DNA of 64,000 nucleotides from Octopus vulgaris (GCA_951406725.2 OX597815.1:162812001-162876000); one strand, 5' to 3'. Counted from the first letter of the stretch, positions 3,488 to 60,680 are shown. A program made the numbers and translations. Notes: generated by a model from the letters alone, not told the origin.

Positions 3488-3725
3488 ATATGTATCAAAA
3501 GAAATAAAATGGAAAACAGGACACAAAGGATTTCGCGGTACATATGTTTCGAGCTTTATAGATGTAAGAATAAGTGGTTCTATAAAGCTCGAAACATATG
3601 TACCGCGACATCCTTTGTGTCGTGTTTTTCATTTTATTTCTTTTGATACATATATCCTCTCACCTATGCTACAAGCTGGCATATACAGCTACTTACATTT
3701 ATCAGGTATTCACCCTGAATTTATA
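3488..3725 (+). mobile_element. Foldback pLTR-like element; both arms carry the 3' half of a hammerhead
   Basis: Arms 3488-3562 and 3579-3653 are near-perfect inverted repeats. The motif gctcGAAAcatatgTAccgcga gives a palindromic stem III and a GUA triplet. Unpaired tail to ~3725, TA-rich flanks. Confidence 0.7.
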
Positions 3726-3758
3726 TATTATATATATATATATATATATTATATATAT

Positions 3759-3870
3759 GGCCTGCTCGCTTAGCCAGCGGGGTGGCATCATTTGAAGGCT
3801 AAAACGATGCAAAGTGCATTGTGACCAGCGATGTGTAGCAACATCTGATAGCTTGGTCGGTCATGTGATA
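3759..3870 (+). mobile_element. 3' part of tRNA-derived SINE family 2
   Basis: Matches 44609-44720. Confidence 0.75.
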
Positions 3871-3879
3871 TATATATAT

Positions 3880-4222
3880 TATGGAGATGTACTTGCTTAG
3901 CAAGTGACCTGATCTGAGATCGTGTACTGGAACGAAAACAATTGCAGCGTGGAAGGTGTTTATAAGCCATTTAAGAAGCACACAAAAACCATTAGATTCA
4001 CTTCAACATTTAATTTGTCAAAATATTTTCTTCACTTTGAGACCGCGACCTGTTCACTGACAAAATTCTGTGCTGCATCTCAGAAATTTGTCAGTGAACA
4101 GGTCACGGTCTTAACGTGACAAAAATATTTTAACAAATTAAATTTAAAAGTTGAAGTGAATCTAATGGTTTTTGTGTGTTTCTTAAATGACTTATAAACA
4201 CCTTCCACACTGCAATTGTTTT
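3880..4222 (-). mobile_element. Foldback element (~135-bp arms plus tail), pLTR-like
   Basis: 3935-4069 is inverted to 4081-4222. Unpaired tail 3880-3935, (TA)n flanks. Confidence 0.7.
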
Positions 4223-4302
4223 ATATATATATATATATATATATATATATATATATATATATATATATAACACACACACACACACACACACACACACAGA
4301 CA

Positions 4303-4540
4303 CATCATCATCATTGTTTAACATCCGCTTTCCATGCTAGCATGGCTTGGACGGTTCAACTGGGGTCTGGGAAGCCAGAAGATTGCACCAGGCCCAGTCT
4401 GATCTGGCAGTGTTTCTACAGCTGGATGCCCTTCCTAATGCCAACCACTCCGTGAGTGTAGTGGGTGCTTTTTACGTGCCACCGGCACAGGTGCCAGATG
4501 AGGCTGGCAAACGGCCATGATCGGATGGTGCTTTTTACGT
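4303..4540 (-). mobile_element. SINE family 3 with (GAT)n tail
   Basis: Near-identical to 34372-34620. Confidence 0.8.
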
Positions 4541-4544
4541 GGAC

Positions 4545-56361: not shown

Positions 56362-57370
56362 ATCATCGTCTGTTGTCCATGATGGCATGGGTTGGATAGA
56401 TTGAACAAGGCTGGCAAGCTGGAAGGCTGCACCAGACTCCAGTCTGATTTGGCATGGTTTCTACAGCTGGACACCCTTCCTAACGCTGACCACTCCGAGA
56501 GTGTGATTGGTGCTTTTGCATGCCACCAGCATGCATGCCATTTGCATGACACCAGTATCTTCCACGACTTCGATTTTACTTGGCTTGATGGGACTTCTTC
56601 TCAAGCACACCATATTGTTGCTTAATGCAATGTAGGCTTTCTCTTAACAACTATCACTTCTATTCACCAGGTCATACCAAATGTTTCATTTTGAAGATAT
56701 CTGCACCTTTAATATAAGATGAAGACCATTTAACTGCATTAATTATATTCATAGAGAGATTTAATATAAACTTGGAGACCAATACAGGTGGCGTGTAAAA
56801 AGCACCCACTACACTCACGGAGTGTTTGGCGTTAAGAAGGGCATCCAGCTGTAGAAACATTGCCAGATAAGACCGGAGCCTGGTGCAGCCTTCTGGCTTC
56901 CCAGATCCCCGGTCGAACCGTCCAACCCATGCTAGCATGGAGAACGGACGTTAAACGATGATGATGATGATGATGATGATGATGATGATGATATATATAT
57001 ATATATATATAAATTCACGATATATATATATTTATAGCGGCACTGGCAATGACCTGCTGGAATATTTTCGTGCAAGGTCGTTGCCAGTGCCACTGGACTG
57101 GCTTCTGTGCAGGTGGCACATAACAAAACACCGTTTGAGCATGACCATTGCCAGTACCACCTGATTGGCCCTCGTGTGAGTGGCACGTAAAAGCACCCAC
57201 CACTTTCTCGGAGTGGTTGGCGTTAGGAAGAGCATCCACCTGTAGAAACTCTGCTTGATCAGATTGGAGCCTGGTGCAACCATCTGGTTTGCCAGTCCTC
57301 AGTCAAATCGTCCAACCCATGCCAGCATGGAAAGCGGACGTTAAACGATGATGATGATGATGATGATGAT
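56362..57370. mobile_element. Cluster of SINE family 3 copies (56362-56560 -, 56785-56990 +, 57040-57370 +)
   Basis: Shared gggcatccagctgtagaaac body and (gat)n tails. Confidence 0.8.
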
Positions 57371-57621
57371 GTATGCATGCATATTTATTTATGTCTATAT
57401 CTATGCATGCTTGTAAGCATATGTTTATGTATTCATGGCTGTCTATCAGTATGTATGTATGCATGTGTGTATGTATAGAGGTGTATGGCTTAGTGGTTAG
57501 AGTGTTGGGCTCATGATCTTTAGATTGTAGTTTTGATTCCTCAACTGGGCAAAACACTTCATTTCATGTTGTTCCAGTCTACTCAGCCAGTAAAAATAAG
57601 TAATCCTGGCATTCCATCCAT

Positions 57622-57825
57622 CAAACTGGCAGAAATTTTAGCACGCTAGGTGAAATGCTTAGCGGTATTTTGTCTGTCTTTACGTTCTGAGTTCAAATTC
57701 CACCGAGGTCACCTTTGCCTTTCATCCTTTTGGAGTCAATAAATTAAGTACCAGTTGCATACTGGTATCAATACAATCGACTGGCCCCATTCCCCAAAAT
57801 TTCAAGCCTTGTGCCTAGAGTAGAA
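57622..57825 (+). mobile_element. SINE family 4
   Basis: ctggcagaa...tgcttagcggtatttt...ttctgagttcaaattcc...ctttgcctttcatccttt. Confidence 0.8.
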
Positions 57826-59404
57826 GTGAATATTGTTCTCCAGCTGACCAGACAAGGGAGATAACTCAAACCATTTATGGTTTTAGCTATGAGTGGAAAT
57901 ATAGTCTTCGCCATCGCTTGCTAGTAAGGCTACAACTAACTTAATATACAGAAATGTTCATAAAACCCATTGAGTTGTTGCAGGAAATGAGATTAATTAA
58001 TCATTTAGTCATAAAGAACAACTGACTGCATATTTTAAGTAATAAATATAAAGGTGGATTTGATTATTTTTCACTGTTTCCAACATAAAAAAAATAATCT
58101 TAGCGGTGTTAAATACAATAATTAGAGAAAAATATGTGATCAATTAATCACATTTTCCAGCTCAGTGAATATTTTTTGTTCTTGTAGTAGTGAATATTTT
58201 TTTTTGCTTTTGTCCTTGTGTTCTTGTAGTAGTCAATTTTATTACAACAAGCAATGGGGAAAGCTGCAGTTCTGCTAATGATTGCTATGAATCCAAAACT
58301 TTCAAGAGTTTCGTGTTAAGGCCATCTCTACAGATTTTTCTGTAGAAACTATAGCCAGTACTGATTTTGTTACGATGTTTTGTATTTGAGATGTCAGATG
58401 TAAACAAGCAATGAGATCATCATCATCATCATCATCCAGTGTTTTAAATCCAGGTTTTGTCCCTGTTAACGGATGTGGCCAGAACTATCTCAATGTCATA
58501 GCAACTGAAGTAGGCAGGTGCAGCCCACCCCAATCTTTGGGCTGGCTGGCTGGCTGGTGCCCATTCTCCTTTGCTATTATCATGAGGCTTTTCTGGAGCT
58601 GGATTTTCTATGGGGAGCATATGCTTGCTTACCCCCCAACCTCAGTTTCTAGACATGAGTGGTCCTGAAACCAATGCTTCTTCCACAATTTCTAAGAAAT
58701 GTGGTGGGAAACTAGCTCAAGAAGGCAGGGACACTACTCACCGAGACCCCTTTCAGAGCCCCCTACCAAAGATGAAAAATGGGTGATGGGTGTGTATGCC
58801 ATATTTTGTGAGTTTTTGCTCCTTCATCAGCACCCATCTGACCCCTTAATCATCCATGAACTCATTGCTTAAATAGCCACTAAATATAACAGAGTAATGT
58901 TATTGGATATACCAATTTTACATATTAAACACATTCCTGGAAGTTGTTACAAACCATTAATATTTAAGAGTTGCCTCTTAACCAGAAAATAATGTTATTC
59001 TTATTCTTTTATTATTTTACTTGTTTCATTCATTTGACTGTGGCCATGATGCAGCACTGCCTTTAGTCAAACAAATCGGACCCCAACACTCATCCTTTGT
59101 AAGCCTAGTACTTATTCTATCGGGATCTTTTGCTGAAATGCTAAGTTATGGGAGTCATAAACACACCAGCATCAGTTGTCAAGCGATGGTGGGAGGACAA
59201 ACACACTCATATAAGCACACACACACACACACACACACTTCTAGAACCACATGCTTCTGGATTCAGTCCAAGTGTATGGCACATTGGGCAGGTAGGTGTC
59301 TTCCACTACAGTCTTGGGCTGATCAAAACCTTATGAGTGGCTTTGGTGGACAGAAACTGAAAGAAACCCATTATATATATATTGTAGAGGGGTAAGTCAG
59401 TTTA

Positions 59405-59467
59405 TAGGGTGACCCTGGGTTTTTTGCTCATAAGGGGCTTGGCCCTACGGTGCATCTTCAGACCCCA
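59405..59467 (-). ncRNA. Type I hammerhead (family B), G12->A
   Basis: ggggu CUGAAGA ugc...gca a aAAA cccaggg UC acccu. Confidence 0.65.
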
Positions 59468-59530
59468 AACACTGCTGGCCCAAGACCTCATCAAAAAGAT
59501 TTTTTGAAGAGGTCTCGGGCCAGCAGTGTT

Positions 59531-59591
59531 TGGGGGTCTGAAGATACACTGAAGGGCCCCTTATGAGCAAGAAGCGCCCAGGGTAACCCCA
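59531..59591 (+). ncRNA. Type I hammerhead (family B), degenerate
   Basis: ggggu CUGAAGA uac...gca a GAAg cg cccaggg UA acccc. Confidence 0.6.
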
Positions 59592-60680
59592 TAGACTGGT
59601 CTACCCCACTATAATATCAACTGTTGTACATTTTAGAGTGTGCTTCTCCTCCGGAATTATGTATTTCTACAAACGATATGTGTGTGTGTGTGTGTATGTT
59701 TGTCCCCCACCACTGCTTGACAGCTGGTGTTAGTGTGTTTATGTTCCCGTAATTTAGAGACTTATATGATGTGTACTAGGCTTGAAAGAAAAGTGTAATA
59801 AGTATGGGGGTTGATTCATTCAACTAAGATTCTTCAAGGCAGTGCTACAGCATGGCCACAGTTTAATGGCTGAAACAAGTAACATATAAAAGATAAAACA
59901 TCTGCTGTATATTTAGTTTAGAATCCCTGTTGTGGTTGTTATAGTCATGTTTCCTTCATTGTACCCTTTGGATTTCTTCAGGTTCCTGTAACATTTGGTA
60001 ATGTTCTTGGAATTTTGAACACAATCCGTTTATTAAATCCATAGGAATAGAAGGTTAGGGTTTTCATTCTGTTGACCACGTCAGGAATATTCTCCTATCA
60101 GTTATTCTCCTTCGAGTGATGCCACTTTTTTTTTTTGTTTCATTTGAACAGTGTATATATTGTTTGACTGACTTTAGGATTGAACTCTTGTCCTCTAAAC
60201 TAAACAACTGCATTCAACACTTGACACTTAATCAATGCTTATATCTACAACTCGTTTGTTCTGTAGAACAACTATGTAATAGAAATTAGGAGCCTTAAAC
60301 CAAACTTTGTTAGAAGTTGTAAACCATACAGTCTTCATCTCTATACTATGATTACTATGGAGATAATCAAAACCCAGTTGTAAGCTGCTTTGTTGTATTT
60401 CTCAGTATTATCTCATTTCAAATGGTACTTTTCATTGCTTTTTTCTTCAGTTGGAATAGTGCTATCTTTGTACATGATATTGTTTTTAACAATAATGCTC
60501 AGTGCTCCTGTTAATTTAAGCATTAATGTTGTCAACAGTCTCATTGTCATTTAGATTCCAGTTTTGGTTATTTGTAATTGAATGTTTTCTGTGCTTTTGA
60601 CAAGTATACTTCTGTCTCCATTCATGTAGACGCATTTACTAGGTGACTTGCTAAGTTTTCAAGTCTTTAATTACGATATA

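What the first reader, a model, noticed from the sequence alone, without database searches (positions are those of the whole stretch)
3488..59675. Dispersed non-autonomous, ribozyme-bearing foldback retroelements (Penelope pLTR / retrozyme-like)
Seen: at least nine foldback elements (3488, 3880, 4545, 9618, 15846, 17145, 20418, 46633, 59378). Most share one architecture: an inverted truncated arm plus a direct arm with an unpaired tail of roughly 40-100 bp. About a dozen Type I hammerhead motifs from several dissimilar sequence families occur in or near them, mostly with a palindromic stem III (acucagagu, acagcugu, acuagu, acccagggu, acauaugu). Known: Penelope-like element pLTRs and retrozymes carry Type I HHRs with palindromic stem III, and Penelope insertions often show inverted pLTRs with a tail. 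Inferred: these are non-autonomous derivatives of several PLE families, at roughly one HHR motif per 5 kb, with no PLE RT or GIY-YIG ORF visible in this window.
Basis: partly seen in the sequence, partly recalled or inferred. Interest (0 to 1): 0.8.

Follow-up and report, generated by a model that had tools for sequence, protein, structure and literature searches.

The report
Penelope foldbacks with swapped-core hammerhead
The foldbacks are real and are likely old end-fragments of Penelope-like jumping genes, a known kind, but one very abundant family carries a hammerhead-shaped RNA motif with two paired core letters swapped (G3-C8), which would be a natural ribozyme variant missed by the usual search patterns if it proves to cut.

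Summary
All 9 foldbacks exist (arms 84-98% identical); 8 of 9 have an inverted arm plus a direct arm with a one-sided tail. Two are enclosed by 14- and 17-bp target duplications, arguing against DNA-transposon TIRs. A strict type I hammerhead descriptor finds 6 motifs (4 independent loci) against 0.125 per shuffle. Two have the published U3-A8 core; the rest are decayed or half motifs; three foldbacks have none convincing. This is the known Penelope-like (PLE) pLTR/tail architecture; 'non-autonomous' and 'retrozyme' are not established.

New: element 3880, which lacks CUGANGA, holds a hammerhead fold with a swapped G3-C8 core. Contigs from 4 runs (3 organism labels) show a very abundant family whose majority letters repair exactly the broken stem II, G12 and stem I positions, while canonical C3/G8 stay under 15%. 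That form recurs in 0 of 20,000 shuffles. The engineered swap partly rescues a PLE hammerhead (PMC11167929); five searches found no natural case in print. Cleavage is untested, and whole foldbacks are predicted to bury the ribozyme.

The parts
3488..3722 (+). Foldback E1: inverted arm 3488-3562, 16-nt spacer, direct arm 3579-3654, tail about 3655-3722. Only the 3' half of a hammerhead (G12 at 3591, stem III ACAUAUGU, A17 at 3602); the turn lies in what would be stem II.
   Evidence: the tail is covered at the same depth as the distal part of the direct arm in run X1, so it belongs to the family
3878..4222 (-). Foldback E2: tail 3878-3934, direct arm 3935-4070 (minus strand), inverted arm 4081-4222; flanked by (TA)n; very abundant family, about 230 bp long by inference.
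4014..4064 (-). Type I hammerhead fold with swapped core in the E2 direct arm: stem I 7 bp, G3-U-G-A-A-C8-A9 at 4057-4051, one extra G at 4050, stem II 5 bp with G10.1-C11.1 in the family majority, G12 at 4030, palindromic stem III AAUAUU, U17 at 4021. This copy has C11.1 mutated.
4087..4137 (+). Second copy of the swapped-core motif in the E2 inverted arm; G12 (4121) and one stem I base (4132) are mutated in this copy and restored in the family majority.
4545..4741 (-). Foldback E3: tail about 4545-4587, arms 4588-4660 and 4669-4741; decayed hammerhead (intact CUGAUGA at 4656, GAAA at 4635, stem I 3 bp, stem II lost).
9607..10005 (+). Foldback E4: 14-bp target duplication 9607-9620 / 9992-10005 around inverted arm 9621-9766, direct arm 9786-9931 and tail 9932-9991. 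No convincing hammerhead; its 3' end resembles that of E8.
   Evidence: end similarity to E8 reached in 0 of 500 shuffles
15846..16832 (+). Foldback E5: inverted arm with decayed hammerhead (15937-15887, U16.1 mutated), direct arm with a strict hit (16674-16724, stem III ACUCUGAGU), tail about 16766-16832 ending in (CA)n.
17145..17621 (.). Inverted pair E6 (17145-17305 / 17462-17621); no hammerhead; its right copy interrupts the inverted arm of E6b.
17415..17825 (+). Small foldback E6b, same family as E9: interrupted inverted arm (17415-17649), decayed direct hammerhead (core 17676, stem III ACCCUGGGU, G17, weak stems), tail to about 17825.
18105..18223 (-). Solo strict hammerhead hit with a 100-nt stem II region and stem III ACAGCUGU; its stems are not favoured in the local fold.
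19077..19142 (-). Intact tail-less hammerhead of the E5 family (stem III ACUCAGAGU); sub-threshold RF00163 match.
19776..19841 (-). Local duplicate of the 19136 hammerhead, 699 bp away in the same orientation; not an independent insertion.
   Evidence: 253/260 identical
20404..20799 (+). Foldback E7: 17-bp target duplication 20404-20420 / 20783-20799 around a near-perfect palindrome (20415-20683) and a tail of about 99 bp; no convincing hammerhead.
46633..47310 (+). Foldback E8: inverted arm 46633-46761, partial direct copy 46754-46968, full 342-bp unit 46969-47310; 8-bp microhomology at the turn; U3-A8 hammerheads in both arms (46707-46677 minus, 47047-47077 plus).
59379..59675 (+). Foldback E9: arms 59379-59497 / 59501-59617, decayed hammerheads in both (CUGAAGA core, stem III ACCCAGGGU-type, GAAA damaged), tail about 59618-59675.

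Best explanation
The foldbacks are likely old retrotransposed end-fragments (pLTR plus tail) of several Penelope-like element families, and the abundant 3880 family carries a hammerhead-shaped motif with a swapped G3-C8 core pair that is predicted, not shown, to cleave weakly as a dimer. Shown here: the arm/tail anatomy, two long target duplications, microsatellite flanks, six strict hammerhead motifs, the swapped-core fold and its retention in the family majority, and foldback junctions that vary between copies. Inferred from PLE biochemistry (PMC11167929) and structure (PMC3846280, PMC8557442): a PLE RT/GIY-YIG protein nicks AT-rich DNA and starts reverse transcription at two fixed internal sites. 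One cDNA includes the tail and the other does not. Both run towards the RNA 5' end, stop at or just beyond the hammerhead, and are joined head to head through short complementarity, in some copies the ribozyme's own stem I or II. The palindromic stem III would let two motifs in a tandem transcript cleave as a dimer. The foldback copies themselves are predicted to be silent, because arm-to-arm pairing removes the ribozyme stems.
For: Anatomy in 8 of 9 elements. Target duplications of 14 and 17 bp enclosing arm, arm and tail. Six strict motifs against 0.125 by chance. U3-A8 core in both arms of 46633, as described for Schistosoma PLEs. For 3880 (runs X1, X6, X8, X12), majority letters restore C11.1 (4031, 86-97% of depth), a stem II pair (4034, 92-98%), G12 (4121, 81-96%) and a stem I base (4132, 93-100%) (fractions). 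No run lists a G>C change other than at 3622, so the canonical letters, which need G>C at 4052 and 4094, stay under 15%; in X1 all C>N changes are accounted for elsewhere. The majority unit gives one descriptor hit (stem I 7 bp, stem II 5 bp), matched by 0 of 20,000 shuffles at that level and by 2 of 20,000 at 4/4 bp with any Watson-Crick 3-8 pair. Its stems form with probability 0.58-0.98 in the single unit and 0.0 in the whole foldback; stems are also 0.0 in whole E5 and E8. Of 11 skip-type joints shown, 9 end the direct arm at 4059-4077, 2-20 nt upstream of G3, with inverted arms starting at 4123-4170; the deepest (4059 to 4133, depth 401) runs through stem I. Summed depth falls upstream of stem II in all four runs. 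The turn lies within 40 nt of core position 3 in E2, E3, E6b and E9, and inside stem II in E1. The C3G/G8C double mutant partly rescues an anole PLE hammerhead.
Against: No PLE ORF is linked to any family, so PLE membership rests on architecture and ribozyme type. No hammerhead is convincing in 3 of 9 foldbacks. Seven of nine show no clear target duplication (microsatellite flanks or none). Tails (43-99 bp, one of 190) are longer than the 30-40 bp reported. The extra nucleotide in 3880 is G, whereas the published consensus has H. Rfam does not recognise the 3880 motif. No two-sided stem covariation was seen within the 3880 family: the table gives per-position letters only, 17 rows were hidden, and 4133 A>G (17-31%) is only a one-sided wobble-compatible change. 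Conservation in a young high-copy family does not prove selection. Only 15 of 164 joints and 12 of 96 insert joints were shown. Stems of the strict hits at 16674 and 18223 are not favoured in local folds. In the anole element, cleavage is not needed for insertion in vitro.
Confidence: 0.8

Rival explanations
1. Some families (3880, 46633) are true non-autonomous short elements, retrozyme-like, copied from their own 230-340-nt masters through tandem or circular RNA and mobilised by PLE proteins. This refines rather than replaces the main reading.
For: 3880 family: the best-supported loose end at 4086 reads about 17 nt and then (TA)n in X1, X6 and X12 (42, 23 and 6 contigs). Very high abundance. 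46633 is 1.6 head-to-tail units of 342 bp with no long ORF between them. Non-LTR retrozymes are reported to derive from pLTRs.
Against: A fixed 5' boundary is also expected if it marks the transcription start in an autonomous pLTR. The head-to-tail pair in 46633 can be two truncated cDNAs joined by a template jump. No element has two direct-tandem units each with a hammerhead. 1438 loose ends were not shown, so continuations into an ORF may exist.
Confidence: 0.35
2. The 3880 motif is a catalytically dead descendant of a hammerhead (or a protein-binding hairpin); the swap was inherited from one master and amplified without selection for cleavage.
For: No activity data. No compensatory changes seen. 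U17 and a 1-2 bp monomer stem III predict low activity. PLE hammerheads cleave poorly in vitro, and cleavage is dispensable for insertion in vitro.
Against: Both partners of the 3-8 pair are changed to the reciprocal Watson-Crick pair while every other core position and both stems are kept. A double change of this kind fits selection on the pair at some time. The engineered swap is partly active.
Confidence: 0.3
3. The foldbacks are non-autonomous DNA transposons (MITE or foldback type) and the hammerhead motifs are incidental passengers.
For: 20418 is a 98% perfect palindrome with no convincing hammerhead; 9618 and 17145 also lack one; several elements sit in TA.
Against: The target duplications of 20418 and 9618 are 17 and 14 bp and enclose a one-sided tail. 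Junctions vary between copies of the 3880 family. Tail-less single arms occur alone (19136). A real TIR element in the window (140-1015, Mos1 HTH) has symmetric ends instead.
Confidence: 0.05
4. The motifs are chance matches in AT-rich DNA and the palindromes are assembly artefacts.
For: Decayed motifs are not above chance singly (7 against 1.9). The 19136/19835 pair may be an assembly or local duplication. No laid contig spans the whole 3480-4225 stretch.
Against: Arms differ by 2-16%, which an assembly fold would not give. Strict hits exceed shuffles about 50-fold. Foldback joints occur in independent runs.
Confidence: 0.02

Closest known systems
EN+ Penelope-like element insertions with inverted pLTR and tail (Arkhipova et al. 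2013, PMC3846280; Craig et al. 2021, PMC8557442; Frangieh et al. 2024, PMC11167929)
   Same: Head-to-head inverted 5'-truncated copy, one-sided tail, partial tandem (46633), variable or absent target duplication, microsatellite targets, hammerhead near the end.
   Different: No ORF in any copy here; tails 43-99 bp (one 190) against 30-40 bp; target duplications 14 and 17 bp against 8-10 bp in the rotifer examples.
Minimal type I hammerheads of metazoan PLEs (Cervera and De la Pena 2014, PMC4209133), including the U3-A8 variant of Schistosoma Cercyon
   Same: Type I topology, palindromic stem III, extra nucleotide between 9 and 10.1 and G10.1-C11.1 (3880 family), U3-A8 core (46633), pairs of motifs 100-700 bp apart on opposite strands.
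   Different: 3880 has G3-C8, and G rather than H as the extra nucleotide; the E5 family has its unpaired base on the 3' side of stem II; several families have 8-9-nt stem III palindromes.
Non-LTR retrozymes of animals (Cervera and De la Pena 2020, PMC7229834; bioRxiv 10.64898/2026.07.22.740005)
   Same: Non-coding, type I hammerhead, unit of about 230-340 nt in two families, probable PLE dependence.
   Different: Dispersed inverted pairs rather than direct tandem arrays; no two hammerheads in tandem units; circular RNA not tested.
Engineered C3G/G8C hammerhead double mutants and the natural U3-A8 covariation (PMC11167929; PMC3884650; Perreault et al. 2011, PMC3088659)
   Same: The 3-8 Watson-Crick pair is preserved by a double change.
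   Different: In the passages read, G3-C8 appears only as an engineered mutant; here it is the majority state of a natural high-copy animal repeat.

Membership tests
EN+ Penelope-like elements | ORF with PLE-clade RT and GIY-YIG endonuclease linked to the repeat | not testable with these tools
   No genome held; no GIY-YIG in 300 of 447 filtered window ORFs; 0 matches for the 3880 motif in viral, metagenome and genome contigs.
EN+ Penelope-like elements | Inverted 5'-truncated pLTR adjacent head-to-head to a direct copy | tested here: met
   8 of 9 elements.
EN+ Penelope-like elements | Tail on one end only | tested here: met
   Tails of 43-99 bp, one of 190; longer than the published 30-40 bp. 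Tails of E1 and E2 are covered by family contigs.
EN+ Penelope-like elements | Variable-length or absent target duplication, AT-rich or microsatellite targets | tested here: met
   14 bp (E4) and 17 bp (E7); others in (TA)n/(CA)n or without duplication.
EN+ Penelope-like elements | Type I hammerhead in the pLTR | tested here: inconclusive
   Strict in E5 and E8, variant in E2, decayed or half in E1, E3, E6b, E9; none convincing in E4, E6, E7.
Type I hammerhead (3880 motif) | Core U4 G5 A6 N7 A9, G12 A13 A14, A15.1-U16.1, H17 | tested here: met
   Intact in the minus-arm copy; G12 of the plus-arm copy restored in 81-96% of depth.
Type I hammerhead (3880 motif) | C3-G8 sequence identity (CUGANGA) | tested here: not met
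   G3 and C8 in both arms and in the family majority; the Watson-Crick 3-8 pair itself is kept.
Type I hammerhead (3880 motif) | Three stems around the core, G10.1-C11.1 | tested here: met
   Stem I 7 bp and stem II 5 bp in the majority form, pair probabilities 0.58-0.98 in the single unit; stem III only as a 6-nt palindrome.
Type I hammerhead (3880 motif) | Match to Rfam RF00163 at gathering score | tested here: not met
   No hammerhead family among 59 matches to E 10 on 3990-4160; the canonical 19136 copy also falls short (20.1 of 34 bits).
Type I hammerhead (3880 motif) | Compensatory stem covariation across copies | tested here: inconclusive
   Only per-position letters available; one one-sided change at 4133.
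Type I hammerhead (3880 motif) | Site-specific self-cleavage after position 17 | not testable with these tools
   Needs an in vitro assay.
Non-LTR retrozymes | Direct tandem array with a hammerhead in at least two consecutive units | tested here: not met
   46633 has 1.6 units with one direct hammerhead; 19136/19835 is a duplication that includes SINE and microsatellite DNA. Window only.
Non-LTR retrozymes | Unit-length linear and circular RNAs | not testable with these tools
   Only contigs were available; they cannot show RNA ends or strand.
MITE / foldback DNA transposons | Symmetric TIR ends with a fixed short target duplication and a fixed internal junction | tested here: not met
   One-sided tails, 14- and 17-bp duplications, variable junctions.

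The most novel reading that the evidence does not exclude
The 3880 family is a roughly 230-bp PLE-mobilised element, among the most abundant repeats of its host group, whose hammerhead works with a natural G3-C8 core. Its own cleavage makes the template for the inverted arm: the cut RNA begins at stem I, and its cDNA anneals through stem I to the cDNA of an uncut copy, building the foldback. Several joints start the inverted arm at 4133-4137, 2-6 nt past the predicted cut (4130/4131), and the deepest joint overlaps stem I. That would give PLE hammerheads a visible role in insertion structure and mean that CUGANGA-based censuses miss whole animal families.
Probability: 0.2. Interest if true: 0.75.

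Novelty: new variant of a known kind. Interest (0 to 1): 0.47.

Why it matters
The general finding is ordinary: PLE end-fragments with hammerheads are described in many animals. The 3880 family adds two things. First, a natural reciprocal swap of the hammerhead's 3-8 pair is carried by a very abundant animal repeat in at least three organism labels. 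The descriptors in the passages read use CUGANGA or UUGANAA, so families like this would be invisible, and statements that some PLE groups lack hammerheads may need a re-screen. Second, its many copies with different junctions make an open question testable by counting alone: whether PLE hammerheads cleave in vivo and shape the inverted-pLTR structure. Three states of the 3-8 pair (C-G, U-A, G-C) lie in one 64-kb window.

Tried and rejected
No genome is held, so family consensus building and linkage to a PLE ORF were impossible. Exact-pattern scans for the 3880 motif gave 0 matches in viral, metagenome and genome contigs. Rfam over the window returned only microsatellite and hairpin miRNA look-alikes among the 150 of 369 rows shown and nothing at gathering score. 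The repeat finder was swamped by microsatellites. A 16-way position 3/8 descriptor on the raw window did not find the 3880 motif, because each arm has its own lesion; its extra hits (58190, 7886, 8223, 12106, 1110, 10889, 20037, 50378) had no shuffle control and were not pursued. Motifs at 9531, 13724, 16964 and 20354 are not counted as evidence (weak stems or chance level). I considered 20418 a MITE and dropped it after finding the 17-bp duplication around the tail. A hammerhead reading of 9618 fails at G5 and stem II. No RNA holder was listed among the runs; X12 is only guessed to be RNA and says nothing on expression. Look-ups of earlier notes by sequence and place were empty. Lunse et al. 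2017 (PMC5785218) was not held, one supplement file of PMC4209133 could not be searched, and the supplement of PMC13282606 was listed but not read; any of these could already show a G3-C8 variant or name these families.

Full report
Setting. The window is 35% G+C, rich in microsatellites, SINE-like repeats and decayed LINE and mariner pieces. From recalled experience, not from any call, it looks like an octopus genome; the runs that hold it are coded, and no genome is held. I used octopus papers as background only: Penelope-like elements are reported there, including 31 recently active families (PMC13282606, part 1 of 3 read; PMC8967140, passages).

The foldbacks. Self-comparison and arm alignments confirm all nine, with arm identities of 84-98%. 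Eight have two arms joined head to head, with an unpaired tail beyond one arm only. 17145 is a compound: one copy of a 160-bp sequence interrupts the inverted arm of a small separate foldback (17415-17825) related to 59378. Two elements are enclosed, tail included, by exact target duplications: 14 bp at 9607/9992 and 17 bp at 20404/20783. The other seven tested show microsatellite flanks or no duplication above 5 bp. 46633 is an inverted arm, a partial direct copy and a full 342-bp unit, joined by 8 bp of microhomology. This matches the PLE arrangements described in PMC3846280 (passages) and PMC8557442 (passages; supplement rows), except that tails and duplications are longer here.

The hammerheads. 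A strict type I descriptor finds 6 motifs against 0.125 per shuffle (40 shuffles, max 2); they make 4 independent loci. With one core mismatch the excess shrinks to 7 against 1.9, so isolated decayed motifs carry little weight. Both arms of 46633 have UUGAUAA, the U3-A8 core reported for Schistosoma PLEs (PMC4209133, parts 1-2 of 4 read) and first reported in nature in PMC3088659 (passages). Rfam finds nothing at gathering score and one sub-threshold RF00163 match at 19077-19142. 9618, 17145 and 20418 have no convincing motif. No GIY-YIG domain appeared in 300 of 447 filtered ORFs. The longest RT remnant is R2-like, and a second is unclassified.

Element 3880. Both arms contain, in hammerhead order, a stem I strand, GUGAACA, one extra G, a stem II hairpin, GAAA, the palindrome AAUAUU, U17 and the complementary stem I strand. 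Each arm has its own lesion. Laying contigs of four runs (three organism labels) on 3480-4225 put 2,799 to 31,836 contigs on the stretch. Summed depth over this element equals that of the neighbouring SINE-like piece, which has 3 copies in the window; the tool warns that depth is no copy number, so I claim only that the family is very abundant. The majority letters mend the lesions: 4031 (C11.1) 86-97%, 4034 (stem II) 92-98%, 4121 (G12) 81-96%, 4132 (stem I) 93-100%. The canonical core would need G>C at 4052 and 4094. Each run lists one G>C place, and it is 3622, so C3 and G8 are below the 15% listing threshold. Seventeen rows were hidden, but in X1 the counts by kind account for every C>A, C>G and C>T change elsewhere, which covers G3 and G5 on the minus arm and C8 on the plus arm. 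The majority unit gives a single hit with 7- and 5-bp stems. Of 20,000 dinucleotide shuffles, 0 reach that level, 2 reach 4/4 bp with a Watson-Crick 3-8 pair and 14 with any letters. The motif was spotted by eye among four foldbacks lacking the canonical core, which does not erase that margin. It follows the published PLE consensus (supplement passages) except for G3-C8 and G as the extra base. The engineered double mutant partly restores cleavage of an anole PLE hammerhead (PMC11167929, parts 1-2 of 4 read). A remark in PMC3884650 (passages) that G3-C8 does better without C17 fits the U17 seen here, which is my inference. Searches found no natural G3-C8 case in print; the library lacks most subscription papers and Lunse et al. 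2017. Unchecked notes of this scan report G3-C8 motifs in phages and protist PLEs, so the swap is not unique to this window.

How the foldback forms. Among the 11 skip-type joints shown (15 of 164 joints in all), 9 end the direct arm at 4059-4077, just upstream of G3, and start the inverted arm anywhere from 4123 to 4170. Junctions therefore differ between copies, which a TIR element would not show. Summed depth drops upstream of stem II in all four runs, and the best loose end at 4086 reads about 17 nt and then (TA)n, suggesting a unit near 230 bp. The deepest joint (4059 to 4133, depth 401 in X1, also in X8) falls in the block shared by the two strands of stem I. Four of those 9 joints, and three further ones among the 12 of 96 insert joints shown, start the inverted arm at 4133-4137, close behind the predicted cut; the window's own mismatch at 4132 may pull some to that place. 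In E1 the first 12 bp of the arms read as a stem II closed by G-C next to GAAA, but family contigs barely cover 3560, so this is unconfirmed. The simplest mechanism, inferred from the two fixed RT start sites and two-strand nicking in PMC11167929, is priming from both target strands, with two cDNAs (with and without tail) joined through short complementarity. Self-priming, proposed in PMC3846280, is an alternative. Folding predicts that transcripts through whole E2, E5 or E8 lose all ribozyme stems, so these genomic copies are probably silent.

Non-autonomous or not. The fixed upstream boundary of 3880 and the 342-bp repeat of 46633 fit short masters, but also fit copies primed near the 5' end of an autonomous transcript or joined by template jumps. 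The retrozyme criterion of two hammerheads in tandem units (bioRxiv 10.64898/2026.07.22.740005, parts 1-2 of 5 read; PMC7229834, passages; review PMC6765202, passages) is not met in the window.

Verdict. Observation confirmed; interpretation partly supported. The elements work like PLE pLTR insertions, but the defining ORF link is untested. The set is a known kind; the G3-C8 hammerhead of a high-copy animal family is a new variant whose activity is unproven. Confidences of the rivals refer to different sub-claims and do not sum to one.

Noticed in passing
window 9747-9712 (-) and 9805-9840 (+): Both arms of 9618 hold a hammerhead-like 3' half (GAAA, a 15.2-16.2 pair that differs between the arms yet stays paired, UC). 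It is preceded by a G3...C8 heptamer with A at position 5 and no good stem II: possibly a second, broken swapped-core family.
   Followed up: partly
window 9932-9991 and 46909-46972; also 2-94: The 3' ends of 9618 and 46633 are alike (0 of 500 shuffles reach the score) and end in an AT-rich hairpin; a further copy of the 9618 end lies at the window start.
   Followed up: partly
window 18419-19854: Local duplication of about 700-800 bp holding SINE pieces, microsatellite and the 19136/19835 hammerheads: the only same-strand pair that could form a dimer in one transcript; may be an assembly artefact.
   Followed up: partly
window 14179-15171 (-), 32217-32821 (+), 53515-53793 (+): Remnants of non-LTR elements: an R2-like RT and zinc-finger / C-terminal pieces; not PLE.
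   Followed up: partly
window 140-1015: Mariner-type element with about 200-bp symmetric inverted ends and a Mos1 HTH remnant.
   Followed up: no
window 4739-5067, 3759-3867, 44424-44742: Very abundant SINE-like family with a tRNA-like head (recognised by eye); two opposed copies flank 3880 and 4545 and could form a further long hairpin.
   Followed up: no
window 41586-42148: Minisatellite of degenerate purine-rich units, apparently inserted in a CR1/L2-like RT remnant (40537-41649).
   Followed up: no
window 46332-46632: Element 46633 directly follows a LINE C-terminal coding remnant (RTE-like by recall), whose continuation is not found after the element.
   Followed up: no
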